Origin: Elusimicrobiota bacterium
GTDB lineage: Bacteria; Omnitrophota; Gorgyraeia; Zapsychrales; Fredricksoniimonadaceae
Length of the DNA: 35,226 bases
NCBI GenBank assembly: GCA_012514595.1
Contig: JAAYZZ010000084.1
Coordinates: 1 to 35,226 of the forward strand
Reading direction: 5' to 3'
Made by a program: the position numbers and the translations under genes. Below are positions 9,001-35,224 of the stretch, piece after piece. The notes below the pieces were generated by a model, which was given only the letters and a program-made list of their open reading frames with translations, was not told where the DNA came from and did not search any database. Numbering within the stretch: position 1 is the stretch's first letter; each line of letters starts with the position of its first letter.

Positions 9001-12000
9001 GGGACAAGACAACGGACTCCCCGTAATTCTTCAAGAGACGCCCGATCAGTTTCTGGTACCGGGGCTTGCGGTATCCCTGCGGATCCCCGACCCTGTCGGG
9101 CGCATGGGAGCAATACCTGTCGAACCCGGCCTCGGTCAGAAGATGGATCAGCCCGTTCAAGAGAAGGCGGCCCGCGAGAAGATAGGAACCCGATTTGGAG
9201 AAATAATATCCATCGCTCACCGCGATATTGTTCTCCAGGTCCGCCCGGAAGGCCACGACCCCCTGGGGACGCCCTCCCACAAACAGCACCAGGGCGTCCC
9301 GATAGATCTCGTTCTTGTGGCTTCGACGCCAGGTGCGGTCGAAGAAACGGACGGCACGTTCCGGATCCTCAGGGATGGTCCCCTCCATATCTTTTCCGAT
9401 CTTCTTCAAGAGAGAAAGTCCGGAGCGTCTCTGCTGAAAACCCATCGAGGAGTAGAGGACAAAAGACATCTTCTCCTGATAGCGGCGGGCAAGGTCCTCG
9501 TTCAAGGCCTGCAGGATCGTCGTGGTCCGTGAGGAGATCCCGGGCAGGATCGCAATGTTCTCCTGAAGTCTCTCCAGGACATGGCGATTGAAGGAATGGT
9601 CGAACCCGACAAGGGCCCCCGCTTCATGGAGGAAACAGCGGATCAGCGTCCTTCCGTCGGTATGCAGACCGGGCCGGATCCAGATGACCCTGCGGCCCCG
9701 CTGGAATGAATTCGCCGCCGGGACCGGCATCTCCGGAGGACCCGTCGCCAGGATCGCCTCGCGCAACGCATCCGCGGCATGAGGGAACTCCCCGTCGTCA
9801 AGAAGCGCCACCGCGATCTGCCGCGCCTCGTCATACTTGGGATCATGCGGAGGCAGGATCCCACGCGAGGATCCCTCGAGAAGGTCTGCCAGATATCTTT
9901 CCTCTTGCGAGCTCAAGGCTTCTTCACTGCAGGCCATGTCCTTCGCCGGATCCGCTCTGCCATCCGGCCTCGAGGTGCGCGCCAGGCTCTCCAGTTCCCG
10001 TAGGAACGAACTCTCCTCCATCGAATCGATATGCACGATCCCCATCGCCTGCGCCAGGAAGGGTCTGACGCGGTCCCAGGCCTCGCCCTCGCTGGTCATC
10101 GGGACCACCCGGGTCCCGTCCTGCACGCTTCCCATGGACGTGAACTGCCGGTACACCTTGCGCCAAAGGCTCGGGAGAACCTCGATGAGATCGAACATCC
10201 CATGATCAAGAACATCGACGCTGCTGCGCGTCGCATAATGATAAAGCGTCTTGACGAACATCATCAGGACCCACGGCGAATAGGGCCTGCGAAGACCCTC
10301 CGCCTTGGCCTTGATCACCGCCAGCTTGGCCCGGATCCCCTGGATCTCGGCGCACAGGACCTCGGCGGCCTGTGCCTGATCCGGATTCGCCTGGGGCCCG
10401 CCGGAGAGACCGAACGACGCGGAGATCTCGTCGGCAAAAAGCTCGTGGGCCAGAAATTTCCCCATCTCCGGCAAGGGACGGTTGCGGACGTCGAGGGCCA
10501 TGATCTCGACATCCACGAAATCCCCGAACTCGTCGATCACAAAAATGGTCCGGACCTTGTCCACTTCGCTCCAGGATGCCAGACCCCGGCGGGAGGCCTC
10601 CTGGAGGAACGCGCGAATGAATCGGGAAAAACAATGAACAATATCATTATCCAGATCCAGCTCCTCCAGACGCAGGGTCCGGGAAAACCCCTCGATCCCC
10701 AGCGCAAGGGCCGACCCCTCATCAGGAGACCAGGTCCCGCCGGCGGCGAAGGGATCGCCCTGCCGCAGGACGCGCTCAAGTTCCTGGATGCCTTCTGAAA
10801 AATGTTCGATCGTGTCCCCGGCGATCTCTTCCGCATCCGGAGCGGTCCAGGGTCCGGGCAGCCAGCGGGTCCGGATATCCTCATGGATCGCCCGGAACAA
10901 AAGAGCCGTCTTTTTTAGATTCAGATATGCCTGCCGGCGAATGGCCAGACGCCACGGCCAGACCACATCGCGCAGCAGGGTCCTCAGGCGGGCCGTGATC
11001 TCACCCCGGACATCCCGGACCCGGGCGATCACAGGCCCCAGGTCCTCCATGAACGTCCACTCCCGGTCATCACACCCGATCAAAAGAGCCTCCAGCGCAT
11101 GGAACTCCTTGAGGAACACATCCCACTGGGCACGATACCTGGCCTCATCAAGCCCCATCGCGGACTGAACGATCCGCCGCGCCTCACGACGGATCACCTT
11201 CATCCGGCTCCGGACCCCGATGCGAACCGCGAAATACTCGTTCCAGCGCTCCATCTGGGCACGGAACGCCTGCAGGTCGGCCATGATCGTCCGGACATCC
11301 TCCTGGATGTCCTCCTTCATCAAAAGCGCTCCGGCGCGCTCCTTGATCGTGCCCAAGGCCTCCCGAACGATCTCCTCAAAAAGCGGTGTCGCCCCGTGGG
11401 AACGCCTTAAGGCCAGGAACGCCTCCACATCCCGGTCGATCCGTTCGATCGCAGAGATCAGGACATCCAGAGGCCCCCGGTTCTTCTCCAAAAATCTCCG
11501 AAGCGGACGAAAGATCTCCTCGGCCCGGGAGGTCCCTTCGCAGAACTGCTCCCTCACCATCTGTTCAGCCCCGCCCGAGGACATCCGCGTCAGCCCTCTC
11601 TCGATCTCGCGAAGCTCGACCATAATGGGGGCCAGAAAAACAAGACCCAGCCGGCTCCGCAGGTACTCAAGCGCCGTCATCTCGCGATGGAACGATCCCA
11701 AATATATCCGGATGATGCCCTCGACCGCACTGCGCAAAAGGCCGACCTTTCCCTCGACCCAGACCCGGATGATCTCATAACCCGCATTCTCCGGGCGACG
11801 GTCGCGCCCTTCCCGATATCCGAACAGCTTGCTCTTGATGGCCCCCTGCCTGTCCTTGTCCATCCGCCGCTCGCGGATGCCGGCGCGCAGCTCCTGGACC
11901 TCGCGCACGAACATCTGCTGCAGATACCGCATCCGGTCAAAGAGCATCTTCCGGCGGGAGGGATCCTGCAGGACAGATTCGACATCCCACGCCAGAAGCG

Positions 12001-24000: not shown

Positions 24001-27000
24001 GCGTGCTGACAAAGGCATCGATATCGAAATGGTCCGCGAACACAACGATCCGCTGTCCCGGCCTTGCGGAGAGAAGCTGGGCCCTGAAATCCTGTTCAAA
24101 GAAATCTTCCGGCGGATCGACGGAGATGGGGGCTCCCCGGCGGACCTGCGCGAGCACGCGCTCCTTCAAGGCGGAATAGGACGGGAATTCAACAGGCTGC
24201 GGGTGTCGGGAAGGACGGGCCAAGACAAAATCCGCGCTCCAGGACCGGTTGTGTTCCTGATGGATCAGAAATGCCTCTTCATCGGTGATCTTGGGATCGT
24301 GAACGGACAAGAACAGGCGGGTCAACTCTGCGTCACGAACATCCGGGGGAAGCCAGGTGATATACCCATGCGCGGCCACGAACTCGCGCAGCGGCATGCC
24401 GCCATGCCGGATCGCCTCATTCTCCGAACGCACGGATGTCTCAAACAGGATCTCCTCTGCGGATTCGCTGTCCCCCCGGGCCAACGCCTCCTGATAATCC
24501 TGCCAGTTCGGCCCCATCAATCCCGGGACACCCCGGGACCGATCCGCGCTGTTTTCCCCCTGCTCCTCACGCGTTGTCCGGGAAGAACTTCCCTGGGGGA
24601 CGATGATCGTCCGGCCTTTTCTCCGTGATCTCTTCGAAGGTTTTCTCTCGTTCTGGCCGACCGGATCCAAGACCGACGCCCTGTCCGTATCGGAAGAACG
24701 CCCACGAGCGGCGCGGCGTGCCGAGAAAGCACCGACCGTGCCAACAACAACAAACCCCCAGGCCACCTGCTCCCACCAGGGCTGAACACAGTCTCCCAGA
24801 CCCGTCAGGGAACAAAAGACAAGAAATCCGCCGAGAAAGACAAGCACCGAAAATGCGACCGCAAAAATATAGGCTCTGCCGGAACGACTATCCCGGAAAC
24901 TCGTCCGGAAAGGATCTTCCAGAACGCCGGCCCCCTGCGAAACAAAGAGAGGAATGGCCAGCAATATGAAAAGACCCGAGAGCAGGCCCGCGAGCCCCCA
25001 GAAGATATGAAGTCCCGCCAGAAGCGCAGTCCCGCCAAGCCAAAGGAACAGAAACGGTCGCAAAGAAACCGCTCCGGACCTCGAGTCCAGATCCCGGATG
25101 TTCCTCTTGAGGGTGCCCCGGGTTTCCGGATCCTCGACGAACTTCGCGACGCTCCGGCAGATCGCGACATCCCCGTAGCAATTGGGGGAGCCTGTCTCAT
25201 CGCACGACGAGTCCATGATAGATGCAGGGGATGTGCTGATATGTACCGTCGCGGGAACGATCCCGTCCTCCTCAAAAAGACGCTTGAGGAAACTTTTGAT
25301 CGTGTCCTCATCCGCGACGTCCGAACAGATATTGATCACGATCCTCTGCCGCCGCGGCCTCTGGGCCCAGGAGAAATAATCCGCAAATGTCGTTTTATGG
25401 AATTCTGCGACGTGTCTCTTGAGGACATCCAACCCCTGATCCTGATCTCCAATCCCCGGCACGAAGTTCACCCAAATATGCCGACGGATCCTCCCCTTTT
25501 CTGCCAGATCCATCGCGATCGTCCCCGGGGCATAACCATGGGTCCGATCGCTCCAGTACGCGTCAGAATGCAGGTCGATCCAAAGCTGGTCATTCCCCGT
25601 CTCCGAGATCTCTCCTCTTTCGATCGCATCATCAAAATAAAGATCGCTCTTGGCATGACTGTCAAAAATATAGACCCCGAAACCGAGATCCGTATTGATC
25701 CGGACATCCTGCGCCATTTCCGAGAATTCCGCCCCGAAATTTGGCGAACGCCTCACATCGGACGCGTGGCCTTCAATATAATTTTTTCGCAAATACCAAG
25801 CCTGATAAAGCCGTTCGACAGCAAGATTTTCAGCATGACGGCCACCGTGGGATTCATGGACCAAGACCGAAGACGGGGTGGGATTCTCATTCGTGGCAAT
25901 AAGGACATACCCGAGGAGATTCGCGCCGTAGGCGCTCTTCACCGGACCCGCCTTGACCCGGTGGGCGGCCAGCATCTCGCGCAGGCGAACCGCCTGAACC
26001 GTCTTTCCGGTCGCCTCGTAGAAGGACAGGACTGCCTTGACCCACGCCTCATCCCCCGACACCCCGCGCCAGCCCGCAGACGGATCCTTCACAACCCCCG
26101 ACCGGATCAGGCGCTTTGCCTCGCGAACGACATCCGCCTCGCTGAACCCCTTGCGAGGCTTCGCGCGATCCGTCGCGGATCCCTCCTGACCCGAGAGAAC
26201 CCGGGCGGTCCTGGCCTTATCCTGACGTTCCTTGACCTGGTCGTAGGTGCGGTTGTCGGGCCCGAACTGCGGCTGGGAAAAGTACTTGTTGGCATCATCC
26301 TCGATGGCCCAGCGCACATCGATCGGGTCCTTCTCGCCCTTCTGGAAGATCTGCGCAAAGACCTCGCCCGTGTGGATGACCTTGCCCTCATCGTAGACCG
26401 CACCGACAAGGCACGGACCCATGGTCGTGATCTCACGCGCCCGCACATGGAGCAGGATCGAATGATCGGCGATGGACCCCGCCTCCAGGTGCGGACACCC
26501 GAAGGCAAAGACACCCTTTCGGTTCGCCAAAAGAGCTCGAAGGCCCGGGCCACAGTCCGCGATCACGTTCCCGTTCTCATCCGGTACCACATCGAACAAC
26601 GCCTGAAGGGCACGTGCCATCTCCGAGAACACCCCGCCGTCATCCATGGCCAAAAGATCATAGAACGCAGGGACAAAGGTCGAATTCATCCCCGTGTCGA
26701 TGAAGATCATCTCCTCGGGATGCCCCAAGTCGCCGAACCCGACACCCATATCCTCGCGGAAAGACCGTGCGGCATGGAGGACCGCGCACCAGTCCGCAAA
26801 GGTGGTCCTGTTCTTGAGCACGTCCCCGTTCGTGGCCCAGGATTCATCGCGGGCCTCGTCGGTAAATGTCGATCCTCCCACCAGGATCGAGTTCTCGCTC
26901 AACCGTGCGGCCAGATACACCGGGGTCCCCCCCGGGGCCCGGACCGTAAAGTGCCGCATCAGGGCATCGATCCCCGCGGGGGTGTAGCGCCGCACAAAGA

Positions 27001-30000
27001 ACGACATGGCGGCGCGCCCTTCCGCGTCCTTGTAGAACGCCAGTCCGTCGGGGTTTGTCGTATCGTTCCCCACAACGCGAGGCTTCTCGCGGGCCACAAG
27101 GATGCGTCCCGCGGCATCGGTCTTGATGAGACAATTGTTGCGCATCGCGTGGTCGGCAAGGGACAGCATCTCATCCGTGATGTGTTCCCGGACCCCGCAG
27201 GTCACCAGGCCTTCAGCGCGCCCGTCGAAAAGCGTGGCATTTGTCGACAACAGCATCTGATCATTGGCGCGCAGGATCCAGCCCGGCTCGGCAAGACGGA
27301 ACTGGCAGCTCTCAAGGATCGTGCGGGCCATGTAGGACACAAGGCCGGGATTGACAATCAGGTGCTTGCCGCCCAACCCCAGCGCATGCGTGAAGGGTTC
27401 ATTACGCGTCCCGCGGCCGGCCAGCTGAATATGAAGCACGCGGGCCGTGTCTTTGTTCAGGCCCAAACGGGGCAGGGCCTGTTCGATCGCGATGTGGATC
27501 TCGGCCACCGAGGCATTGAGATTGTCCTTGAAGACGCCGCTCGGATTGATGACAAGAATGACCGGAAGGTCTGCCGGGTAGGCGACACCCCGAAGCGCCT
27601 GGATCGCCTGGCGGTTCACATCCAGCATCCACTCTTCCGTATCAAAGACCAGCGCGTCGAACTGGGCGCCGCCCTGCATGAAGACCGTAAAGTTCTCCCA
27701 CATCCGGCGCGCCGCGGCCAGACGGATCTTCAACGTAGAGGATGTGGATGGATCATTCTCCATCCTCGCGAAATAATCCCCATGTCTGCGGGTGATCGGT
27801 CTGGGGGCCTGGAACCCTTCGGGCTTCCTCAGGATCTCATAACGGTTCGGGTAGTCTGCGACCACCTCGGCCTGCCTGCCCCTGACGCGGTCCGCGATCA
27901 TCCGCGTGAACCCGAGCTCCCGGCCCAGGCGCACCGCCATCTGACGCTTGGTCACGAGGGTCCGCGTTCTGGCCTTGAGCCTGGCCTCTTCATCCTTCTG
28001 TTCTTGAGGGTTCAACACCAGGGCGTTCAGGGCCGTCATGAACCGTTGCAGAAGATCCTCATGGGCCAAAAGGGTCCGGGGATCCTCAGGCGCGACATGA
28101 TTGATCGCCGTTCGGGCCGTCTTGGAAAATTCTGCCGCGGCCGGGATCTTGTCCCTTTCGGACTCAAAGACGGCCAAGAGCATCCTGAACAGGATCTCGA
28201 ACTTGAGGCCCGCGCTGAGGACATCATTTCCCTTGACCGCATCGATCGTCCGTTGCGTATCCGTGAGATCGTCGTGCCCAACAGGCTTGTTCGTATCTCC
28301 GTATCCCTGCGGATGGCTCCGGTGCCACTTCCAGGCATCTACGATCGAATCGCGGGTGCTCTTCACCGGGGCCCACCCTGTCACCTGCTGGAACCGGCCC
28401 CCCTTCTCGGCGGTCAAGACATCGGGGTCGCCCTGACGCTTGTTCTCGACTGAGATCCGAGACGCCGCGTCCGGGATATCCGAGGAGACGACCTCGACCA
28501 CAAGATCTCGGATCTCCTTGGCCGACTTGGGATCGCTGGTCCCAAGGTTAAAGGAATCGCTGACGCCGCCCCCCAGAAGATAAACAAAGGCGCGATAATG
28601 CGCATCCGCCAGGTCTCGGCCATCGATATAATCGCGGACCGTTGTTCCGTCGGCCGTCTGGGCACGTTCCCCGGGGATCGTGTCGCCCGTGATGCGGTCC
28701 TTCACGCTCCCGTCGAGATGAATGCTCTTTCCGTTCGCGAGGGTCTTGAGGAACCAGGCGATCAGATGGGTCTCGGGATCGTGGTCCTCTCCCTTCACTC
28801 CCTCGTCAAAGGCGCCCGCGACGTTGAAGTACCGCAGACACACGGAGCGGATCCCCTTGCGGGCCGCATACTCCCTCAGGATCAGCTCCACTTCATATTT
28901 GTTCTCGCCATAAGGATGTATCGGCCGCAGCGGGAAACTCTCATTGATCCCCTGCCCTTCCGCCAGGACCGGTTCCCCATAGACGGCGCAGGAAGAGGAG
29001 AAAATGTAATACGGACACCCGAACTCGACCATCACGTCGAGAAGATTGAGCGAATTGGCGATGTTGTTCACGTAATACTGCGACGGCATGTTCAGGGAAT
29101 CCGGCACAACGATATAGAACGCGGTATGGACGACCACATCAGGCCTGTAGGCATGGAACGTCCGGCGCAGGGCCTCTTTGTCGGCGAGGTCCCCCTCGAC
29201 AAAGACCGCCTCGCCGGGAACCGCGGCACGGTGCCCCCCGGAGAGATTGTCGAAGACGACCACCCGGCAGCCTTGTGCCAGGAAATAATGAGAAAGGAAG
29301 GTCCCGACATATCCGGCCCCGCCCACGATCAGGACGGTCTTCCGGGCAAAATGAAGGACCTGGGCCAACTGCGAGGCCATGTCCCGCTTGACAGGATCTC
29401 TCAGCGCCGAGAACGCGGCCTCATATTTTTCCGCAAGGTCGCGGTCCGCCAGGGCCGCGGCCTCATATTCTCCCAGCTGACGCGTATCCAGGAGGGTCCG
29501 GCCCGCCCGGGCAAAGGCCATGGCCTTGTCTGCTGTGGCCGGCTCGGATTCGAACACGTTCACCAGGAACCGGAACAGGATCTCGAACTGAAGGTCCTTG
29601 GAAAGATATTCGTGAGAAGTCACCGCCTCAATCGTGTTCTTCGTGTCCTGGACCTCGGTCGGCGGAACAGGGACTTCCTCATCCCCGTAGCCGGTGAGAT
29701 GTGTCTTCTGGAACATCCACGCGTGACGCAGCGAATCGAGGAAATTGGTCTCGGCCCTCCAACCCGTCGCCTGCTGGAGCCGGGCGCTCGAGGCGATCAA
29801 GCGGGCCGGGTCCCCGCGCCGGGCGTTCTCGACCCTCAGACGCTCCTCGATCTCGGGGAACTCGTCTTTGAGGACCGTCTTGACCCCCTGGGCGATCTGC
29901 TTCGAGGAGTACCCGTCCGCGGTCCCGCAGTTGAACGGTCCCTGCAGGCCCTTCACGAACGCGGCCTCGTGAGCCTTGGCGAGATCCGTGGCGTCGATGT

Positions 30001-33000
30001 AATCCCGGATCGGGGTCCCGTCGGGAGTGTCCACCTGGATCGGCGGGATCGTCTCTCCCGTCACCGGGTTCTTGGTCGATCCGTCAAGCAACAGGCCCAT
30101 CACCGCCGCACGGCCCGAAAGCTCGCGGAGAAGGTCCAAACCCGCCTTCTGATCGGCCAGGACCTCTTCGGCCTTTTTCCCTCGGATCACATCCTTCAAA
30201 GTCCGACGGAGCGTCCCGTAGATCCGGATCAGTCCGCCCATCCCGATGTAGGGACGCGCCGTCCCCTCGGCCGGGACCGCAGGAACCACGTTCTTCTCTA
30301 ATAAGTCCCTCAACGACCTCTCCTGCGCCAGGCTCAGCACGGCCCCTGCGGTCTGACGCGCGATGAGGTCCCGGACGATCAGCTCGATCAAGGGCAGCTG
30401 CATCAGAAGCGGCACCAGATGCGTCTCGGGACTGTGGTCCTCCCCGATCGATCCATCGGCCGCAGACCCGAACACGTTGAAGTACCGCAGGAAGGTCGTC
30501 TTCACGCCGGTCTTCTTCGTATACGCGGTCAGGATCTCCTCGGTCAGGAACTTGCTATCGCCGTAGGTCTGGATCGGATTATTCGGCGTCTTCTCGGTGA
30601 TCACCGCATCCTCGGGCTGGCCATATGTCGCCGCACTCGAGGAGAAGATGAACTGCGCGACCTTACGGGTCGTCGACGCATTCGCGTTGTGCTCGCTGAT
30701 CGCATCCAGAAGACCCAACAGCCGCGCGATGTTGTTGTCATAGTACTTGCCGGGAAGGCTCACCGACTCCGACACCAAAGAGTGCGCGGCGAAGAAATAC
30801 ACGGCCTCAGGCTGATACGTCCTTAAAACCTCCTCGAGCCTGGAACGGTCCGCCACATCGGCAGAGATGAAATCCGCCCCCTTCACAACAGCCTTCGGAT
30901 GTCCCTTGATGCAGCTGTCGTACACGACCACCCGATATCCGTTCTCCGTCAGATGCTTGACCGTGTGGCTCCCCACATACCCCGCTCCTCCGATCACAAG
31001 GACGGAACGTGATCCGGGGACTTCTGCGGGTTGTTTCTCTTGACCCTCCCCGTTAAAATCAATGACCTGACGGAAAATATGAACACGGTTGGGGGCGTCC
31101 TTTCCGCCGATCTCCTCTCCCCTGTGGCGCAGAATATCGATCTGGATCCGCACCCCGGAACGGATGCTCTCATCTTCCGGCGAGAGCGCCGTGATCGTCC
31201 CCGGTTCCGAGGTCTTCTGATAATCGGCGAGGAGCGCCGGCATGGAGGGAACCTTGCTCTCAATCGTAACATGGACCGGGAGCCGTAAGATCTGGGACAT
31301 CGCCTCAGGTCCCCACCCGTTCCAATAGTCGCGCGTGAAGGTCTCCCGAAGCTTGAGCGGGTTGAAAGGCTTTCCGTTGTGAAGAATGACCAGGCGGATC
31401 CCGCGGTCGAAGGCATAAAGCTCGATGCCCAGGCTTCCCGGCTGACGGTCGCCGTCCGCCACGCGCCGACGGATCGCGTCAAAGGACCGATACACCCAGA
31501 ACTCGATCACATCCGAGAAGATCCTCTGCAATCTCCTGTGCGGACTGATCTCTGCGACGGCCTCCGGGAGGGCGCGGGAATGGAAATCGGAAGACCAATG
31601 CAGGAACTGCTCCTCTAGCGGGATCCCGAACAGCCCTTCGGACAGACGCTCCTTGAGGAACCAGTCCTCTCCCTGCAGATCGATGAAGGCATGGACATCT
31701 TTCTCGGTCCGCTCGTCATACGCCTCAAAACTGGGCACCAGGGACAATCCATAAAAGACCATCTGGATATCCGCCTCGGCCGGATCCTTGTACCCGCGGG
31801 TGCGGTCCTCGAACCGGACCGCGGTCCTGTTCTTGTCGTCGTGAAGGCGATACCGGAGATCCGCGAAATCCTTGAGCGCTTCAATGTTGGTATATTTTCC
31901 CTCGAAGATATAAACGACACCCTTCTCGAAGACGATCGGGATGTCCCGGCGCTCCATCTGACCGCGGATGTACGCATTGCGCACCACATAGTCCTCACGC
32001 TCACGGCCGGAGACACGGAAGGCCTGAAGATGCCGGAGAAGGTCCACGGCCCCGTCGAAATCAAAGAACCCTTCCTCCCCCAGATACGGCTCACCGGACC
32101 GGAGAGTGGTCACAAGGTCCCCGAGCAACGCCCTCTCCTCATCGGTCAGGACCAGTTCGCCGCTCGCCGGGTCATGGGCCACGACCTTCTGGACGGCCTC
32201 GCGCCAATGGCGGTCCCGAAGATACCAGTCCAGTTCCAGGATCTTCACGCGCACCTGGCTCTGGGACAGGACCTTCTCGATCAGTCTCGCGATCACGGTC
32301 TTTCCGGACCCGGACCCTCCGTCGATAGAGACGACCGGCACATTTCCCGGGACCCCGCGGGCCAGGCGTTCTCGGATATGACGCACCATGGGGATCACGA
32401 ACGGCTCCATCCTCGCCTGCAGATATTCAAAGGAACTCGCGAACAGGGGCCTCCCGGTCACGGGATCGATCGGCGGATGATTGTAGTACCCGTGCGCCCT
32501 GGCGAACTCGTGGGCCGCCAGCGGGATCACCGCCTGGTCCTGTCCATAACGATACCTCGTCGAGGAAAGACCCAGATCGATCTGCGAATGCTGCAAAAGT
32601 CCCATGGCAAGACGCTTCGCCCCCCCGTAAAGCGCCATGGCATGTTCGTTGTACTGATCCATCATGGCCTGGCTCATGGCAGCCCCGAACTTCCCGCGCT
32701 GGATCCAGTAAATGCTGATCCGGTGCCGCGGGTCCATCCGTCCCTCATAATCCTTGAAGAACGTATAGAACTGACGGCAGTAATTCACGACCCGCTGTTC
32801 GCTCTCGATCCCGAGAAGGTACACAAAATGCATGCGCCGGCCGCGATTGTCCTCCATCAGACGGATCATGGAGGCGAACCCTTCATCCTCATTATCCGGC
32901 TCGCTGGAAAGGTCCGTGTACCGGACCAGAGGATTGAGGACCGCGATCGCCAGGCGGGACATCATGTGCCGATGTTCCGTCGAGACCTTCTCCGAACGAT

Positions 33001-35224
33001 AAACCTTCTTGTACGCGATCTTCCCCTGCACGCGGATGACCGCCATATCGAGCTTGAGGAGCGCGACCGCAAAGAGCGGCGGGATCAGATGCCCGTGATT
33101 CGGGGGATTCCCTGTGATGGGAAGGAACCCGACCTGGACCTCTCGTTCGGGGGCCGCATCATGAAGGGCCACAGGACCGTCATCCTCGATCGAATGCTTC
33201 AGAAGATTCATGCGCAAAAGCGGATCGCTTTCCCCCCGACGGACATTCTCCGCGATCATGCCCAGGCACCTCTGGTAGGCCCGGAGGATCCGGCCGTTCA
33301 GGAACCGGTCGCTGCGCTGTTTGACCAGGGGATCGGCCGCGATCTGCTGGGCCTCGATCTCGCGCCAGACCTCCTCCACGGCTTCCGAGGCGCTGATATG
33401 CCGGGTCGCGGGGTCCTCTCCTCGACGGGCCCTGAGCCAGTCGCGCAGCACGGCCTCCCGCGAGGCGTTCTCCTCCTCGGTCAGATCGAACTCCGGCCCG
33501 TGGGTCCGAAGCGCGCGGATCTCATGGCCAAGGCTCAGGGCGATCTCAAGGAAGGTGGCATAGGCAGGATAGGAGGTGCTGACCAGAATATGCTCCTGGC
33601 CGTCACGCTCAACGGTCGTGGCCAGGAATCCCTGGAGCGGCGCGCCCTTCAGGAGCCCCGTGCGTCCCATCCAGCGCAGTTTCGCGGCCGCCTGGCCGTC
33701 CCCGGTCTCCTCGAGCCCGCGGGCCATCAGCTCCCACATCTCCCGGGGGATCTCCGTGACCTTGGCCCAATCCAGTCGGGCGAGACCTCTCCTGACGATC
33801 TCCTCCGGGGAAAGGCGCCGAAGGTCCGGCGACAGGATCAAGGAGGGGATCGGCCGGGCCGGATCCTTCTTCGAAGAGCGTGGCGTCTTCACCCGTGCGA
33901 TCCCCAAAAGGATCCTGCGCAATCCGCCATCGGTCACCTGGGAAAGAGGAAGAACCGGCGGCGGGAACATCGGATGAAGGTGGATAAAGACCCGGGTCCT
34001 TGAGAAGATCTCCTGGGCCGCTCCGACCAGCTCATCGAGAACGTCACCTTCCTCGACCTGAACTTCCCGGGCCTCCCGATCGCCCGTGTATTCAAAACCG
34101 ATCTTAACGTCAATATCCGAAGGGAGATCCCAAGAGGCCGCAGAGGAATCGGCCGCATACTTGCGCACCAGTGCGCCCATAAAGGCCTCGAACGTCCACG
34201 GCTCCGGAACGGTCCCGATCTCGGCATGGCCCTGGGCGATCCCGTCCGCGATCCCGACGATCAACGGCCGTACGAGCCCCTCACGCCGCGCGATCTCCCG
34301 AACGCGCTCCAATAAAAGATCGAACGCCTCCTGGTATCGGGAACTCAAGGCCCCGAGGTTCAAGGCTGAAGCATCATTCTCCCGGACCGGATCCTCCGGG
34401 ATCTTATCGGGGTGTGTCACCACGACCATGGTCGTGGTGGGCGTCATGTCCGCCCGTTTTCTCAAGACAACGCCGGGAATGCCCTCTCCCCGGGCATCCA
34501 CGAAGACGATCTCGCCCCCTCGTGTCCGGATGTCGGCGGCCTGGGTCACGACGCGGATCAAGGTCTCCCCGTACTTCGCGCGGTCCTTGAAGTTCGAGAT
34601 GAATTCCTCGTTCTCGTCGACCATGCGGGCGAAGACCGTATCAGGGCCGAAGACAGGATCAAAGCCCGCGCGCAGCAACAGCACATAGCCCTTCACAAAG
34701 GCCCGGAGATCCCCGCTCTTCCGGGCCGGGATCAAAAGCACGAAGTAGAGATAGAACCATTCGCCCATGCGTCCGAAATTCTTTTGGAAGAACTCCAGGT
34801 CTGCAGGCCTGATCTCTCCGGAGGAGACCAGATCGGCGACCGCGCGGTCAAAATCCGCCAGGTACGACCCATCGGTCCGCGCCGGATCAAGCCATGCCCC
34901 CATGATCCGTGCGAGCCTGCGGCGGGCACCAGGACCCGCCTCCTCACGGAAGGCCCGCTCCGCGGCCTCCCTGTTCGTCGTCCCCTCGACAGAACGACGC
35001 ATCAGGTCCGCCACAAAGATCAGATATTCAAGCGCATTCGCATGACTCAGGCCCTCGCCGTTCCCCGCTGCATCTACCGTCCAGAAAAGGATCGTGTCTC
35101 CCAAGAATTCGTCAAGACGGTTCGGGTCGATCGCTCCGGCGGGCGCGAGATGGGCCGCGACATCCGTATCATCAAAAAGCTCAAAGGCGCTGGTCAAAGG
35201 ACGCGAGGCCGCGGCATGCCCCGG
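2..35224 (-). CDS. Single giant open reading frame, partial at both ends (11,741 codons in-window); multi-domain mosaic protein with several transmembrane clusters
   Basis: The minus frame with codons on + triplets starting at 2,5,8... shows no in-frame TAA/TAG/TGA (that is, no + strand TTA/CTA/TCA in that register) on my manual reading of the whole window. None of the ~55 minus-strand ORFs in the track is in this frame: their end coordinates are all 0 or 2 mod 3, never 1. That is what is expected if the frame never closes in-window and a start-to-stop caller cannot emit it. All long + ORFs share one frame (start = 2 mod 3), the exact antisense register. More than 15 textbook catalytic motifs, from nt 33.1k down to 0.5k, all fall in this same frame. 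Confidence 0.9.
533..574 (-). other. Motif: Cys-rich cluster CCX3CX4CX2C directly after the HPr domain
   Basis: FFDCCPDECFPEKCGHCFDP, with Cys codons (aca on the + strand) at 572-574, 569-571, 557-559, 542-544 and 533-535. Confidence 0.35.
590..841 (-). other. Domain: HPr (PTS phosphocarrier) fold
   Basis: EQSFVVSWDHGLHARPASAFARLSLSI...GGSATSVMDVLSVGAWTGQRVVIRIADTSDRSRLALMAYDRFF. The GLHARPA signature (His15 context) lies at 791-811, and SATSVMDVLSVG matches the Ser46 region (KSIMGVMSLG) of Gram-positive-type HPr. The length is about 85 aa. Confidence 0.8.
2400..3100 (-). other. Domain: protein-kinase-like fold (atypical; RIO/Kdo/ABC1-like)
   Basis: FSGGSDAAVYINEDNSHPVILKDV (Gly-rich loop plus the VxxK lysine, 3026-3097), HEMVIPRAVVQKYVPE (hinge-like), GIVDWDVKTENYGYD (catalytic-loop-like, 2645-2668) and VCSFDLGK (DFG-like, 2594-2608). 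Confidence 0.5.
4260..4960 (-). other. Domain (tentative): radical SAM-like
   Basis: GEGCRWACHHCIQG is a CX3CX2C motif (Cys codons at 4916-4918, 4904-4906 and 4895-4897). About 35 aa later comes RGWESNDPLNW (GGEP-like), then FGFTTRGWEP and LLSFHLFH at positions expected for the TIM-barrel strands. Confidence 0.45.
5745..6075 (-). other. Transmembrane cluster 5 (about 4 helices)
   Basis: RWIMLLGTASAVAIGVLALWG, FIKAFLMIFFVVDLPLAAMAFVAM, FVPVVFSILEFTVFAAGILAAVML and SWMIGLLVPVLFLIGRAIL. Confidence 0.75.
6155..6409 (-). other. Domain: ParB/sulfiredoxin-like N-terminal domain
   Basis: VRQVSVAYLTDSRHADIVRTP...AIRLDIRAGQKKVLVWDGTHRLSALNRIGESSVAAHIVW, with the DGxHR core at 6221-6235. Confidence 0.5.
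7208..7610 (-). other. Domain: HD metal-dependent phosphohydrolase, HD-GYP-like layout with degenerate GYP
   Basis: HREESARVGDMAGLLAGELG...VDLLRRIGRAHDIGKK (HD at 7496-7501)...LHAELT...VLRHHSYYLGFRP (HHExxDGxGYP position)...LIVSDHLIARYADRGYK (DxxDAxxSxRxYK position). Confidence 0.7.
7690..7990 (-). other. Transmembrane cluster 4 (3-4 helices)
   Basis: AVLLKAVFTLGGILAAGLGLGYGLL, SAVLAVGIFGTAYYLLGRLF and TFLIGALEGATVLVMLLMAPVIAVLAFWV, followed by RIRGIRKGHR. Confidence 0.7.
8150..8880 (-). other. Domain: HAD-superfamily phosphatase, subfamily IIB (Cof / sugar-phosphate phosphatase type)
   Basis: Motif I VISDFDGVMRD (DxD at 8858-8866), motif II LVQITGRP, a cap-sized insert, and motif IV VLILGDSLGTRLRPGNDRSML (GDS at 8246-8254, ND at 8216-8221). 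Confidence 0.7.
16679..16768 (-). other. Motif: Cys4 zinc-ribbon-like (CX4C ... CX2C)
   Basis: CREVRC (16751-16768) ... 20 aa ... CPWC (16679-16690). This is a pattern only, and no family is assigned. Confidence 0.25.
16955..17030 (-). other. Transmembrane helix 3 (single)
   Basis: STLVGMPLLILGLPVVLLFIFWPLL, immediately followed by the basic stretch RRVWELFKMRRYRRGRRVAR. Confidence 0.6.
17150..18020 (-). other. Domain: calcineurin-like metallophosphoesterase (PPP / ApaH / PrpA-type Ser/Thr phosphatase)
   Basis: All signature blocks occur in order: GDLHGDF (18002-18019), LIFLGDYIDRRPRG, FLMGNHEF (GNHE at 17822-17833), LLNGGG, LYLHAGIP and IVTGHTPF (GHT at 17195-17203). Confidence 0.75.
18200..18349 (-). 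other. Motif: HExxH zinc-metallopeptidase-like (SprT/DUF45-like context)
   Basis: VRRKTIAVNMNMALRAPPLMIDAILLHEILHVIFPRSSEGQIW, with HEILH at 18257-18271. The context resembles YgjP/SprT-type minimal metallopeptidases. Confidence 0.35.
19448..21223 (-). other. Domain: GT-B fold alpha-glucan phosphorylase / glycogen-synthase-like (GT35/GT5-like), divergent
   Basis: RRLYLVSPEITLLSGGLGRVMQYLGRALKKMGLEVVFIEPRY (21167-21223; compare the SxE...YSGGLG...G-L-P-xxGxGLLY N-terminus of glucan phosphorylases). Also ALNDGQS (NEGH position), MVTTHTYRNRIF (TTHTP position), VNAVSDAHAGDV (NGVSxLH), IYGLTNGD (ITNGV), FFIILGNEQP (FAGKAHP) and GTGAAESTEAH (EASGTSxMK position, not conserved). Confidence 0.5.
21908..22048 (-). 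other. Transmembrane cluster 2 (1-2 helices)
   Basis: NVIAVALGTLLFLGLGGILIAVLFHFF, then MPGVSMAAMFPFFV. Confidence 0.6.
23045..24055 (-). other. Domain: DHH/DHHA2-family phosphoesterase (family II pyrophosphatase / exopolyphosphatase-like)
   Basis: IVVFADHFDIDAFVSTLS (motifs I-II, 24008-24049), VKLVQVDSSG (motif III position, non-canonical), WLTIDHHKE (DHH at 23729-23737), GASAAFMISQEY, LYSMMSDTLNFT and MLNDIKYDY (DHHA2-like). Confidence 0.65.
24724..25055 (-). other. Transmembrane cluster 1 (about 4 hydrophobic helices)
   Basis: FLFLWLGGTALLAGLHIFWGLAGLLSGLFILLAIPLFV, YIFAVAFSVLVFLGGFLVFCSLTGL and VAWGFVVVGTVGAFS. The cluster is followed by a strongly basic stretch, ARRAARGRSS...KPSKRSRRKGR. 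Confidence 0.7.
26309..27568 (-). other. Domain: sugar-phosphate nucleotidyltransferase-like (NTP_transferase / pyrophosphorylase type) plus C-terminal extension
   Basis: LPVILVINP...HIQLAGRGTRNEPFTHALGLGGKHLIV (AGxGTR signature at 27386-27427) and ...KTDAAGRILVAREKP (EKP at 27080-27088). The layout resembles GlgC/ManC/RmlA-type enzymes. The C-terminal ~200 aa are unassigned. Confidence 0.5.
28298..29341 (-). other. Domain: UDP-glucose 4-epimerase (GalE)-like NAD-dependent epimerase, copy 2
   Basis: KTVLIVGGAGYVGTFLSHYF (29300-29341), YYVNNI, YIFSSSCAVYGEP, YGENKYEVELIL (YxxxK), CLRYFNVAGA, GEDHDPETHL, VRDYIDGRDLADAH and a C-terminal DAWKWHRSHPQGYG (compare E. coli GalE ...WHWQSRHPQGY). Its 348 aa is the canonical GalE length. 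Confidence 0.85.
29684..31003 (-). other. Domain: UDP-glucose 4-epimerase (GalE)-like NAD-dependent epimerase, copy 1, with a large internal insertion
   Basis: SVLVIGGAGYVGSHTVKHL (GxxGxxG at 30977-30994), YYDNNI, FIFSSSAATYGQP, YGDSKFLTEEIL (YxxxK), FLRYFNVFG, GEDHSPETHL, PIRDYIDATDLAKAH and a C-terminal HAWMFQKTHLTGYG. The domain is collinear with E. coli GalE end to end but about 440 aa long. The extra sequence lies roughly at 30035-30397. Confidence 0.85.
31118..31516 (-). other. Domain (tentative): GHKL/anti-sigma-kinase-like ATPase fold, degenerate
   Basis: SDVIEFWVYRSFDAIRRRVADGDRQPGSLGIELYAFDRGIRLVILHNGKPFNP...WNGWGPEAMSQILRLPVHVTIES loosely follows the N-box / G1 / G2 layout of RsbW/SpoIIAB-type domains. 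The canonical Asn is not evident. Confidence 0.2.
31673..32340 (-). other. Domain: P-loop kinase of the uridine kinase / phosphoribulokinase / nicotinamide-riboside-kinase type
   Basis: Walker A VVSIDGGSGSGKTVIARLIEKV (GGSGSGKT at 32297-32320), then KILELDWYLRD, VVYIFEGKYT and RYRLHDDKNRTAVRFEDRTRG. This pattern is typical of the PRK/Udk family. Confidence 0.65.
32546..33139 (-). other. Domain: NadD/NMNAT-like nucleotidyltransferase (cytidylyltransferase fold)
   Basis: VQVGFLPITGNPPNHGHLIPPL carries the HxGH motif (H-G-H codons at 33089-33097). It is followed by ...EHRHMMSRLAI... and a C-terminal LGLSSTRYRY (ISSTxxR-like motif, 32546-32566). Motif order and spacing match nicotinate/nicotinamide mononucleotide adenylyltransferases. 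Confidence 0.6.

What the first reader, a model, noticed from the sequence alone, without database searches (positions are those of the whole stretch)
26309..33139. N-terminal third of the window reads like a fused nucleotide / nucleotide-sugar metabolism module
One chain carries, in consecutive order, an NMNAT-like nucleotidyltransferase, a Udk/PRK/NRK-like P-loop kinase, a possible GHKL-like fold, two GalE-like UDP-hexose 4-epimerases and a sugar-1-phosphate nucleotidyltransferase-like domain. Further downstream it also carries a GT-B glucan phosphorylase/synthase-like domain, a HAD-IIB sugar-phosphatase-type domain and an HPr domain. These activities are normally separate cytoplasmic enzymes of nucleotide-sugar activation, interconversion and transfer. 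Fusing them into one membrane-tethered polypeptide suggests a single-chain glycan or envelope-precursor assembly factory. That functional reading is inference only.
Basis: partly seen in the sequence, partly recalled or inferred. Interest (0 to 1): 0.75.

Follow-up and report, generated by a model that had tools for sequence, protein, structure and literature searches.

The report
Enzyme cassette inside a giant gene

Summary
The whole 35,226-nt window is one open frame on the minus strand: 11,741 codons, no stop, cut at both ends. The finding covers aa ~696-2972 of that chain.

Confirmed:
- Two tandem-duplicated GalE-type 4-epimerases. Both exceed the curated GalE equivalog cutoff and keep the GxxGxxG and S/YxxxK residues.
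- A NadD/NMNAT-type nucleotidyltransferase. The link is transitive: 8 of 11 family members hit NadD models, best E 8e-10.
- A Udk/PRK-family P-loop kinase fused directly after it.
- A very divergent sugar-1-phosphate nucleotidyltransferase-like domain. The family profile hits GlgC, UGPase and RmlA structures at E 3e-4, and two family members pass Pfam NTP_transferase.
- Downstream GT5 and HPr domains.

Not confirmed: the GHKL-like fold and the HAD-IIB domain.

Relatives (30-75% identity) all lie in giant ORFs of Candidatus Omnitrophota and allied MAGs. This matches the published "Archaeovorin" or "multi-enzyme metabolic cluster" giant proteins.

The cassette is built from two mobile sub-modules, [NadD-like + kinase] and [epimerase + nucleotidyltransferase], whose order is shuffled between relatives. 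It is therefore not a fixed assembly line.

Best reading: a membrane-tethered array doing NadR-like pyridine-nucleotide salvage plus NDP-hexose formation and 4-epimerisation. Function is inferred, not shown.

Verdict: a new member of a known kind, of moderate interest.

The parts
2..35224 (-). Single open reading frame of 11,741 codons that runs off both ends of the window. It is a fragment of a giant gene.
   Evidence: 0 stops versus ~375 expected. Codon-position GC is 65/43/74%. Homologous segments lie in ORFs that span whole loci in L005-L021.
32465..33139 (-). NadD/NMNAT-type nucleotidyltransferase domain (aa 696-920). Motifs: GNPPNHGH (aa 705-712, with NHGH at window 33089-33100) and SSTRYR (aa 887-892, window 32549-32566).
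   Evidence: NCBIfam returns only NadD models. The window copy scores E 0.011; 8 of 11 homologues hit TIGR00482, best E 8.2e-10. hhalign against E. coli NadD is collinear over 196 columns, P 0.012. The motifs are conserved in every copy that covers them.
31640..32362 (-). Udk/PRK-family P-loop kinase domain (aa 955-1195), with Walker A GSGSGKT at aa 970-976. It is always fused directly after the NadD-like domain.
   Evidence: Pfam PRK: E 1e-3 in the window, 22.9 bits (above GA) in P0001. NCBIfam nucleoside/nucleotide kinase and Udk models hit 14-16 of 16 homologues, best E 1.2e-9. The profile hits 1rz3 at E 1.7e-5 and aligns to UCK2 over its full length. Foldseek hits 1rz3, 3c8u, GLYK and UCK2 (low-confidence model).
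31025..31639 (-). It is conserved only in the closest relatives (L005, L007, L013, L020).
   Evidence: No family or PDB hit supports GHKL. pLDDT is below 50. There is a weak CsrA-like match at aa ~1351-1395, E 0.049.
29705..31009 (-). GalE-type epimerase 1 (aa 1406-1840), with a ~120-aa insertion at aa ~1610-1734. Key residues: GGAGYVG 1412-1418, S1530, Y1554, K1558.
   Evidence: TIGR01179 scores 268.5 bits (cutoff 262.3). Pfam Epimerase and GDP_Man_Dehyd hit it. PDB 2c20/8wxk alignment. The insertion is conserved in L011 at 52% identity.
29342..29704 (-). Helical tail/linker after epimerase 1 (aa 1841-1961). It is paralogous to the tail after epimerase 2, and a similar segment opens the stand-alone protein P0003.
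   Evidence: Self-BLAST: aa 1802-1939 versus 2263-2400, 39% identity, E 1e-24. L003/L004 match aa 1857-1961.
28301..29341 (-). GalE-type epimerase 2 (aa 1962-2308). Key residues: GGAGYVG 1968-1974, S2078, Y2105, K2109.
   Evidence: TIGR01179 scores 273.2 bits (cutoff 262.3) and aligns over the full length, 2-331 of 332. Pfam Epimerase E 5e-68. PDB GalE hits.
27956..28300 (-). Tail/linker after epimerase 2 (aa 2309-2423).
   Evidence: Paralogy with tail 1.
26225..27955 (-). Divergent sugar-1-phosphate nucleotidyltransferase-like domain with a probable C-terminal beta-helix (aa 2424-3000). Family-conserved residues: G2603-R-G-T-R2607, P2610, K2620, D2655, E2713-K-P2715, D2843-T-G2845.
   Evidence: Only 14 relatives in 1.84e9 representative proteins. 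The family profile A7 hits GlgC 1yp2 at E 2.8e-4, 9xuk at 4.2e-4, UGPase 8x7s at 1.7e-3, and RmlA and GMPPB more weakly. In family members P0016 and P0019 the homologous region passes Pfam NTP_transferase (E 1.2e-13 and 1.6e-7). The window copy alone hits nothing.
24809..24997 (-). First pair of hydrophobic (putative transmembrane) segments after the module (aa 3410-3472).
   Evidence: Kyte-Doolittle 19-residue window means of 2.4-2.7. This is a hydropathy scan only.
20417..21208 (-). GT5 starch/glycogen-synthase catalytic domain (aa 4673-4936). It is a possible consumer of the NDP-hexose.
   Evidence: Pfam PF08323, E 1e-11, 45 bits (GA 22.7).
623..841 (-). HPr-like domain (aa 11462-11534) with GLHARPA (His11474).
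   Evidence: Pfam PTS-HPr, E 4e-7, 30.4 bits (GA 23). Motif found.

Best explanation
The interval is a real coding segment (aa ~696-3000) of one giant gene of at least 11,741 codons. The gene belongs to the kind described in Candidatus Omnitrophota as 'Archaeovorin-type' or 'multi-enzyme metabolic cluster' giant proteins.

The segment is a mosaic of two recurrent, evolutionarily mobile sub-modules.

(A) A NadD-type nucleotidyltransferase fused to a Udk/PRK-type P-loop kinase. The most likely function (inferred) is two consecutive steps of pyridine-nucleotide salvage: (nicotinamide or nicotinate) riboside -> mononucleotide -> dinucleotide. This is the same logic as the bifunctional enzyme NadR, but built from different domain families.

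(B) Two tandem-duplicated GalE-type NAD-dependent 4-epimerases next to a highly divergent sugar-1-phosphate nucleotidyltransferase/beta-helix domain. The most likely function (inferred) is NTP + hexose-1-P -> NDP-hexose, followed by interconversion of the 4-epimers (Glc/Gal or GlcNAc/GalNAc type). The product would be available to the GT5 glucan-synthase-like domain further along the same membrane-anchored chain.

Shown: the single ORF; the domain homologies; the intact catalytic motifs; the recurrence and adjacency of the modules in relatives.
Inferred: the substrates; the cytoplasmic location; the direction of flux; any channelling between domains.
For: Single ORF.

GalE identity and catalytic residues. 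The two epimerase-plus-tail units are paralogues at 39-46% identity.

NadD link: the only NCBIfam families hit are NadD models, in 8 of 11 copies, best E 8.2e-10. The alignment to E. coli NadD is collinear end to end. The N-x-G-H and SST-x-Y-R motifs are conserved in every copy that covers them across 30-75% identity. JGI names P0002 'uridine kinase/nicotinic acid mononucleotide adenylyltransferase'.

Kinase.

The didomain is always found as NTase followed by kinase. It occurs in 17 other loci, and wherever the locus is long enough it lies inside a giant ORF.

Nucleotidyltransferase-like domain.

Epimerase adjacent to this domain in the window, L011, P0010, P0012 and P0018, in both orders.

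Elsewhere the same domain sits next to ROK and GHMP kinases, HAD phosphatase, ribulose-P epimerase and adenylate kinase. As the stand-alone gene P0003 it sits next to a canonical NTP_transferase and to HIT and HAD genes.

GT5 in the same chain.

Literature: Omnitrophota giant proteins carry GT5, GT1, HAD, PGM, ROK and many TM helices (10.1101/2023.11.21.568195; 10.64898/2026.06.07.730766). NadR performs NR -> NMN -> NAD in one protein (PMC7221760).
Against: - No activity, substrate or topology is shown.
- The window's own NadD-like and nucleotidyltransferase-like copies are far below every curated family threshold, and Pfam sees neither.
- The first His of the (H/T)xGH motif is Asn in the whole family.
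- Both AlphaFold2 models were of low confidence (pLDDT 44.9 and 34.5), so no fold-level confirmation was obtained.
- No NadR model or NadR structure was hit, so the NadR parallel is one of architecture only.
- The NadD-like + kinase didomain co-occurs with the epimerase/NTase pair in only 2 of 18 instances of the didomain, counting the window: the window itself and L011. A functional link between sub-modules A and B is therefore weak.
- The GalE domains bind NAD as a prosthetic group and do not need a local NAD supply.
- The naive hydropathy topology would put GT5 on the opposite side of the membrane from the N-terminal module.
Confidence: 0.55

Rival explanations
1. The NadD-like + kinase didomain belongs to the sugar-activation pathway. 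The P-loop kinase would phosphorylate a sugar or polyol, and the cytidylyltransferase-fold domain would make the NDP-derivative. This is the logic of HldE or TagD. The whole interval would then be one nucleotide-sugar line.
For: The kinase's structural and profile neighbours include non-nucleoside kinases of the same family: 3c8u (putative fructose-transport-system kinase), glycerate-3-kinase 7xpc, and NF006746. The didomain and the epimerase/NTase pair lie within 2,500 aa of each other in the window and in L011. The catalytic motif is the atypical N-x-G-H.
Against: Every nucleotidyltransferase model hit is NadD. No RfaE-domain-II, TagD or generic cytidylyltransferase model appears. In 16 of the 17 other loci the didomain occurs without an epimerase or NTase neighbour.
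Confidence: 0.2
2. Catabolic or salvage direction. The enzymes process sugars taken from prey or host cell walls, with a Leloir-type Gal/GalNAc -> Glc conversion that feeds glycolysis or a storage glucan made by GT5. On this reading they do not build envelope precursors. This is the role proposed for Archaeovorins.
For: West-Roberts et al. propose exactly this for the GT5 and epimerase-type content of Omnitrophota giant proteins. Omnitrophota have reduced, host-dependent metabolism. GT5 is a glycogen/starch-synthase family. The top PDB hits of the NTase-like family are ADP-glucose pyrophosphorylases.
Against: GalE and pyrophosphorylases are reversible, so sequence cannot give a direction. No galactokinase or GalT was detected in the window. 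The similarity to GlgC is too weak to assign specificity.
Confidence: 0.3
3. The domains are catalytically dead relics that serve as structural or scaffold material in a giant surface or adhesion protein.
For: The NadD-like and NTase-like domains are extremely divergent (no Pfam hit). The first His of HxGH is lost. Most of the chain has no recognisable family.
Against: Both GalE copies score above the equivalog cutoff and keep all catalytic and NAD-binding residues. The residues conserved family-wide in the divergent domains are precisely the catalytic signatures: GxGTR, K, D, EKP and DTG; NxGH and SSTxYR; Walker A.
Confidence: 0.1
4. The long frame is an assembly or annotation artefact (a chimeric contig, or several genes read through), not one gene.
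For: The window has no start or stop, so the gene limits are unseen. One relative (L001) contains an exact internal duplicate that could be an assembly artefact.
Against: 0 stops in 11,741 codons versus ~375 expected. Uniform composition along the window. Homologous modules lie in uninterrupted ORFs of 2,000-7,000+ codons in more than 15 independent assemblies. Giant genes of this type have been closed with long reads.
Confidence: 0.02

Closest known systems
Omnitrophota giant proteins: 'Archaeovorins' (West-Roberts et al. 2023, bioRxiv 10.1101/2023.11.21.568195) and 'multi-enzyme metabolic cluster' giants (Nielsen & Lui 2026, bioRxiv 10.64898/2026.06.07.730766)
   Same: An ORF of more than 10,000 codons. 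Many hydrophobic segments. Many different metabolic enzyme domains tiled on one chain, including the GT5 starch-synthase domain. Most of the sequence is invisible to Pfam. All detectable relatives of the window's modules lie in giant ORFs of Omnitrophota or allied MAGs.
   Different: The window is 61% GC, against 40-58% in the relatives. No SecA_DEAD, HEAT, NUDIX or C39 domain was detected within the window. The NadD-like + Udk-like didomain and the divergent NTase-like domain are not mentioned in either paper (term searches). The source genome was not found in the collections scanned.
NadR (bifunctional NMN adenylyltransferase / ribosylnicotinamide kinase; PMC7221760)
   Same: A nucleotidyltransferase domain is followed directly by a P-loop kinase domain in one chain, so two consecutive NAD-salvage steps could be fused.
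   Different: No sequence homology to NadR was detected. The NTase is of NadD type, not the archaeal-NMNAT type of NadR. The kinase is of Udk/PRK type. No HTH domain was detected. The pair is embedded in a giant protein and is sometimes tandemly repeated (L001).
UDP-glucose 4-epimerase GalE (TIGR01179; PDB 2c20, 1udc)
   Same: Full-length homology above the equivalog cutoff. GxxGxxG, Ser, YxxxK and the C-terminal R-x-G-D motifs are all present in both copies.
   Different: There are two tandem copies inside a giant chain. Copy 1 carries a ~120-aa insertion. Each copy is followed by a ~100-aa conserved tail. Substrate range is unknown.
Sugar-1-phosphate nucleotidyltransferases with a C-terminal left-handed beta-helix (GlgC, GMPPB, ST0452, GlmU-type; Pfam PF00483 + Hexapep)
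   Same: The signatures G-x-G-T-R...K, D, E-K-P and D-T-G occur in the canonical order. The C-terminal region is beta-rich and hexapeptide-like (Hexapep hit in family member P0016).
   Different: There is a ~170-aa conserved N-terminal extension and a ~70-aa insertion between EKP and DTG. The window copy is below detection for Pfam, NCBIfam and PDB single-sequence searches. The family has only ~14 representatives in 1.84 billion clusters.

Membership tests
GalE, UDP-glucose 4-epimerase (TIGR01179 / PF01370) | Whole-domain profile score at or above the curated equivalog cutoff | tested here: met
   268.5 bits (copy 1) and 273.2 bits (copy 2) against a cutoff of 262.3.
GalE, UDP-glucose 4-epimerase (TIGR01179 / PF01370) | N-terminal GxxGxxG NAD-binding motif and catalytic Ser + YxxxK | tested here: met
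   GGAGYVG at aa 1412 and aa 1968. S1530/Y1554/K1558 in copy 1 and S2078/Y2105/K2109 in copy 2.
GalE, UDP-glucose 4-epimerase (TIGR01179 / PF01370) | 4-epimerase activity and substrate range (UDP-Glc/Gal versus UDP-HexNAc) | not testable with these tools
   Needs an enzyme assay.
NadD/NMNAT nucleotidyltransferases (TIGR00482; Pfam CTP_transf_like) | Profile match at or above the family threshold | tested here: not met
   The window copy scores 15.8 bits against a cutoff of 112.45. Homologues reach E 8.2e-10 but stay below the cutoff. There is no Pfam hit. This indicates superfamily-level homology only.
NadD/NMNAT nucleotidyltransferases (TIGR00482; Pfam CTP_transf_like) | (H/T)xGH motif after strand 1 | tested here: inconclusive
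   The motif is G-N-P-P-N-H-G-H. The G-H is conserved in every copy that covers the motif, but the first position is Asn in all of them.
NadD/NMNAT nucleotidyltransferases (TIGR00482; Pfam CTP_transf_like) | C-terminal ISSTxxR motif | tested here: met
   L-S-S-T-R-Y-R at aa 886-892. S-S-T-x-Y-R is invariant in the family.
NadR-type bifunctional NMNAT/RNK | Homology to NadR's own NMNAT and RNK domains | tested here: not met
   No NadR model or NadR structure appears among the hits. Only the NTase-then-kinase architecture is shared.
Udk/PRK nucleoside-kinase family (PF00485) | Walker A motif plus a profile match at or above the gathering score | tested here: inconclusive
   Walker A GSGSGKT is present. 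The window copy scores 19.4 bits against GA 22; homologue P0001 scores 22.9 bits. NCBIfam nucleoside/nucleotide kinase and Udk models hit 14-16 of 16 homologues, best E 1.2e-9, all below the equivalog cutoffs. The profile hits 1rz3 at E 1.7e-5.
Sugar-1-phosphate nucleotidyltransferase (PF00483, +/- LbH) | G-x-G-T-R-x(n)-K signature, plus EKP and the Mg-binding Asp residues in canonical order | tested here: met
   GRGTR 2603-2607, K2620, D2655, EKP 2713-2715, DTG 2843-2845. These are conserved across the 14-sequence family.
Sugar-1-phosphate nucleotidyltransferase (PF00483, +/- LbH) | Profile match at or above the Pfam gathering score | tested here: not met
   The window copy gives no hit even at E<=10. 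Family members P0016 and P0019 pass in the homologous region. The family profile against PDB gives GlgC at E 2.8e-4. The domain is a remote homologue, not a demonstrable member.
GHKL (Bergerat-fold) ATPase | N-box, G1 (DxGxG) and G2 motifs, or an HATPase_c profile match | tested here: not met
   No hit from Pfam, NCBIfam or a PDB profile for aa 1196-1400 or its two homologues. The sequence has HNGKPF where DxGxG would be expected.
Omnitrophota multi-enzyme giant proteins (Archaeovorin-type) | ORF >10,000 aa, multiple TM segments, many unrelated enzyme domains including GT5, and relatives in Omnitrophota | tested here: met
   The taxon of the window itself was not determined; the nearest MAGs are labelled 'uncultured Planctomycetales', at 68-69% identity.
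Omnitrophota multi-enzyme giant proteins (Archaeovorin-type) | SecA_DEAD-like domain (present in most full-length examples) | tested here: not met
   Pfam does not find it within the 11,741 aa of the window. It could lie outside the window.

The most novel reading that the evidence does not exclude
The giant protein is a genuine 'pathway on a chain'. On this reading a membrane-anchored polypeptide would make its own NAD through a NadR analogue built from NadD-type and Udk-type domains. It would also make and epimerise NDP-hexoses, using a previously unrecognised clade of sugar-1-P nucleotidyltransferase found almost only in giant proteins. Finally it would pass those NDP-hexoses to glycosyltransferase domains on the same chain. 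Module shuffling between lineages would act as a combinatorial way of evolving new pathways. Alternatively, the chain could be a polyprotein that is cleaved into these enzymes.
Probability: 0.2. Interest if true: 0.75.

Novelty: new member of a known kind. Interest (0 to 1): 0.45.

Why it matters
What Omnitrophota giant proteins do is an open question, and most of their sequence is 'dark'. This work makes three points.
- Part of that dark sequence resolves into recognisable, probably active enzymes once small family profiles are built from other giant proteins.
- Two compact modules recur and move between giants: a NadD-like + Udk-like didomain, and a GalE + nucleotidyltransferase pair.
- These modules are small enough (500-1,000 aa) to express and assay. 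That would turn speculation about 'prey cell-wall processing versus glycan synthesis' into a direct biochemical test.

The general idea of many metabolic enzymes fused into one membrane-anchored giant chain is already published, so this window adds detail and not a new principle.

Tried and rejected
- The + strand ORFs of up to 1,419 aa were rejected as antisense artefacts of a high-GC gene.
- Single-sequence PDB searches of aa 650-1400 and aa 2300-3100 gave only P-loop noise or nothing.
- AlphaFold2 on aa 690-1400 (3-sequence MSA) and aa 2480-3000 (2-sequence MSA) gave pLDDT 44.9 and 34.5. The second model was unusable. Foldseek on the first gave no hit at E<1e-3, and only the kinase part found sensible neighbours.
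- Word-indexed homologue searches found only 2, 1 and 6 relatives, none with a Pfam domain.
- Pfam on the 11 NadD-like copies found nothing relevant.
This was not used as evidence.
- GHKL was tested with Pfam, NCBIfam and a PDB profile and was not supported.
- HAD-IIB: no Pfam hit at E<=0.01 anywhere in the chain, and no DxDGT motif.
- Searches for the source contig in the genome and metagenome collections found relatives at 68-69% identity at best, so gene ends and neighbours remain unknown.
- The search for related loci with the 14-sequence alignment failed because the alignment was too diverse.
- The ADP-heptose (HldE/HldD) reading was considered. It was set aside because the epimerases score as GalE (heptose epimerase model 90 bits against a cutoff of 275) and the NTase hits only NadD models.


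Full report
**1. What is at these coordinates**

The six-frame scan shows that the minus strand, frame offset 2, is open across the whole window. It has 11,741 codons and no stop, while the other frames have 32-343 stops. From base composition about 375 stops would be expected (ln P of none = -382). GC by codon position is 65/43/74%, a normal coding signature.

The long + strand ORFs listed mechanically are R/P/G/H-rich antisense artefacts. The window is therefore an internal fragment of one gene of at least 11,741 codons.

Amino acid k occupies window bases 35225-3k to 35227-3k. The finding (26309-33139) is aa 696-2972, and its upper end falls exactly at the start of the first domain described.

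**2. Domain-by-domain check**

*Epimerases.* Pfam finds Epimerase/GDP_Man_Dehyd twice (E down to 5e-68). NCBIfam places both copies above the curated GalE equivalog cutoff: 268.5 and 273.2 bits against 262.3. Solved GalE structures match at E 7e-68.

Both copies keep GGAGYVG, the catalytic Ser, YxxxK and the C-terminal RxGD. Copy 1 has a ~120-aa insertion, which is conserved in the Omnitrophota relative L011. The two copies, together with their ~100-aa tails, are paralogues at 39-46% identity.

*NMNAT-like domain (aa 696-920).* Pfam and single-sequence PDB searches see nothing. NCBIfam returns only NadD (nicotinate-nucleotide adenylyltransferase) models. The window copy is weak (E 0.011).

I collected 11 homologous copies from related loci (A5). 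Of these, 8 hit TIGR00482, best E 8.2e-10, and all nine families hit were NadD models.

hhalign of the family profile against E. coli NadD gives an end-to-end collinear alignment of 196 columns, P 0.012.

G-N-P-x-N-x-G-H and S-S-T-x-Y-R are conserved in every copy that covers them. They sit where NadD has its HxGH and ISSTxxR motifs. The domain is therefore a divergent NadD/NMNAT-superfamily nucleotidyltransferase, with Asn in place of the first His.

*Kinase (aa 955-1195).* Walker A is GSGSGKT.
- Pfam PRK is the top hit: 19.4 bits in the window, 22.9 bits (above GA) in homologue P0001.
- Across 16 homologues the consistent NCBIfam hits are 'nucleoside/nucleotide kinase family', 'kinase' PRK07667 and Udk, in 14-16 of 16, best E 1.2e-9.
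- The family profile hits 1rz3 (possible uridine kinase) at E 1.7e-5 and aligns to UCK2 over its full length.
- Foldseek on the moderately confident kinase part of the model finds 1rz3, 3c8u, GLYK, UCK2 and CoaA.

*'GHKL' (aa 1196-1400).* There is no support from Pfam, NCBIfam, a PDB profile or the model. This domain is conserved only in the closest relatives.

*Nucleotidyltransferase-like domain (aa 2424-3000).* The window copy alone hits nothing. An exhaustive HMMER search of 1.84 billion representatives found only 14 relatives, most of them proteins of 1,000-6,500 aa.

Two of these relatives bridge to the known family. The homologous regions of P0016 (aa 630-1061) and P0019 (aa 850-1309) are recognised by Pfam NTP_transferase above its gathering score, at E 1.2e-13 and 1.6e-7.

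A 14-sequence family profile (A7) searched against all PDB sequences returns almost only sugar-1-phosphate nucleotidyltransferases. The hits are ADP-glucose pyrophosphorylases 1yp2 (E 2.8e-4) and 9xuk (4.2e-4), UGPase 8x7s (1.7e-3), then RmlA, ST0452 and GMPPB, with the GxGTR and EKP motifs aligned in order.

The family-conserved residues are G2603/R2607/P2610, K2620, D2655, E2713-K-P and D2843-T-G. These are the catalytic signatures of that family. A Hexapep hit in P0016 and the hexapeptide-like C-terminus suggest a beta-helix.

*Downstream domains.*
- GT5, aa 4673-4936: confirmed.
- Metallophos, aa 5735-6010: present, and not mentioned in the finding.
- HPr, aa 11462-11534, with GLHARPA: confirmed.
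- HAD-IIB: not recovered.

**3. Context and relatives**

A scan of one genome per species found eight loci. Six lie in Candidatus Omnitrophota MAGs at 36-44% identity. Two lie in MAGs labelled 'uncultured Planctomycetales' at 68-69% identity. A metagenome scan added nine more loci.

In every locus long enough to judge, the match lies in an ORF that spans most or all of the locus, from about 2,100 to more than 7,200 codons. This matches the published Omnitrophota giant genes:
- West-Roberts et al. describe 'Archaeovorins' with GT5, GT1, HAD, NUDIX, sugar-phosphate enzymes, many TM helices and largely unannotatable sequence.
- Nielsen & Lui describe a 'multi-enzyme metabolic cluster' class, with PF08323 in 153 long proteins.

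Neither text mentions a NadD/uridine-kinase pair or nucleotidyltransferases.

The window is 61% GC, against 40-58% for the relatives. Its source contig was not found.

**4. Module structure**

The NadD-like + kinase didomain always occurs as a unit and in that order, in all 17 other loci. It is tandemly repeated in L001.

The epimerase and the NTase-like domain are adjacent in the window, L011, P0010, P0012 and P0018, in either order.

All four module types co-occur only in the window and in L011, and in L011 the order is permuted: epimerase -> NTase-like -> aa3152-3361-like -> NadD-like + kinase.

The closest relatives share only aa 448-1395 with the window and have no epimerase downstream.

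The NTase-like domain also exists as a free-standing 680-aa gene (P0003). It sits beside a canonical NTP_transferase, a HIT protein, a HAD hydrolase and an LbH protein. In other long proteins it sits beside ROK and GHMP kinases, HAD, ribulose-phosphate epimerase and adenylate kinase.

The interval is therefore a mosaic of mobile enzyme modules, not a conserved ordered line.

**5. How it most likely works (inference)**

*Sub-module A.* It has the architecture of NadR, which converts nicotinamide riboside to NMN and then to NAD in one protein (PMC7221760). Here the architecture is built from NadD-type and Udk-type domains. Eukaryotic NR kinases are likewise Udk-like (my own knowledge). I take this to be a fused two-step pyridine-nucleotide salvage unit. 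That would be plausible in organisms with partial cofactor biosynthesis.

*Sub-module B.* It is a pyrophosphorylase plus 4-epimerases: NDP-hexose formation and Glc/Gal-type interconversion. GT5 further along the chain is a possible consumer.

The following cannot be decided from sequence:
- whether the domains are cytoplasmic;
- whether the chain is cleaved.

A crude hydropathy scan gives TM segments at aa ~3410/3453, 4393, 6068, 9079/9162 and 9724-9816. Taken literally, this puts GT5 and Metallophos on the other side of the membrane from the N-terminal module. The published work notes the same kind of ambiguity.

**6. Verdict**

Five of the six domain calls inside the interval hold. Two of them could be shown only through family profiles, and the GHKL call is not supported. 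Of the three downstream calls, two hold.

It is a membrane-associated multi-enzyme chain with a coupled nucleotide-sugar pair, but several points weaken it:
- the 'factory' reading is unproven;
- the nucleotidyltransferase + kinase pair points to NAD salvage;
- the module order is not conserved.

The thing is a new member of a known kind. Interest is moderate. The main value is that it defines small, assayable modules within otherwise dark giant proteins.

Noticed in passing
window 1-35226, + strand (e.g. 18512-22771, 25007-28453): The frame antisense to the giant gene has only 32 stops. It yields spurious ORFs of up to 1,419-1,436 aa that are rich in R, P, G and H. A gene caller could mis-annotate these as + strand genes.
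   Followed up: yes
window 31040-31174 (-), aa ~1351-1395: The end of the unassigned domain (SGVRIQIDILRHRGEEIGGKDAPNRVHIFRQVI) resembles the CsrA carbon-storage-regulator fold sequence (PDB 1t3o). The match is weak (E 0.049 with a 3-sequence profile), and Pfam CsrA was not hit.
   Followed up: partly
window 33521-33889 (-) and 13703-14056 (-); also L013:90-353 and 9174-9566: Internal repeat: aa 446-568 resembles aa 7057-7174 (32% identity, E 8e-7). The same two-copy pattern is visible in relative L013. The function is unknown.
   Followed up: no
window 24809-24997, ~21992-22048, ~16967-17023 (-): Hydropathy gives a TM pair at aa 3410/3453 and then single TM segments at aa ~4393 and ~6068. Those single segments bracket the GT5 (4673-4936) and Metallophos (5735-6010) domains. 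Read literally, this puts a nucleotide-sugar-dependent transferase on the opposite membrane face from the enzymes that would make its substrate. Either TM segments are missed, or the topology is unusual.
   Followed up: no
window 25136-25798 (-), aa 3143-3363; L002:336-815; L011:6177-6821: An unannotated ~220-aa module sits immediately upstream of the NadD-like + kinase didomain in L002 and L011, and follows the NTase-like domain in the window. In P0002 the region upstream of it contains an HExxH-like motif (YHELISH). No family was assigned.
   Followed up: no
L001:3860-5224 and L001:6426-7790: L001 (33% GC) carries at least four tandem NadD-like copies. Two stretches give identical tblastn statistics and are probably an exact duplicate. 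This is either a recent tandem duplication or an assembly artefact. Frame changes between copies suggest frameshifts.
   Followed up: partly
L003:10001-12043 and L004:2237-4279 (protein P0003): This is a free-standing 680-aa version of the NTase-like domain, with the epimerase-tail-like N-terminus. It lies in a 41% GC genome next to a canonical NTP_transferase/LbH gene and to HIT, HAD and inositol-monophosphatase-family genes. Some neighbouring genes carry faint S-layer and Methanothermobacter-named domain hits. The organism is undetermined, so this may be the ancestral or donor form of the module.
   Followed up: partly
window, whole: The window is 61% GC (GC3 74%). Relatives sharing up to 75% amino-acid identity in the didomain are 45-47% GC, and most Omnitrophota relatives are 40-44%. 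Only L014 (58%) approaches it. This points to a high-GC lineage carrying this gene type.
   Followed up: no
window 623-841 (-), aa 11462-11534: An HPr-like domain with the canonical phosphorylatable His motif (GLHARPA) is embedded near the low-coordinate end of the window. No other PTS component was detected in the chain.
   Followed up: partly
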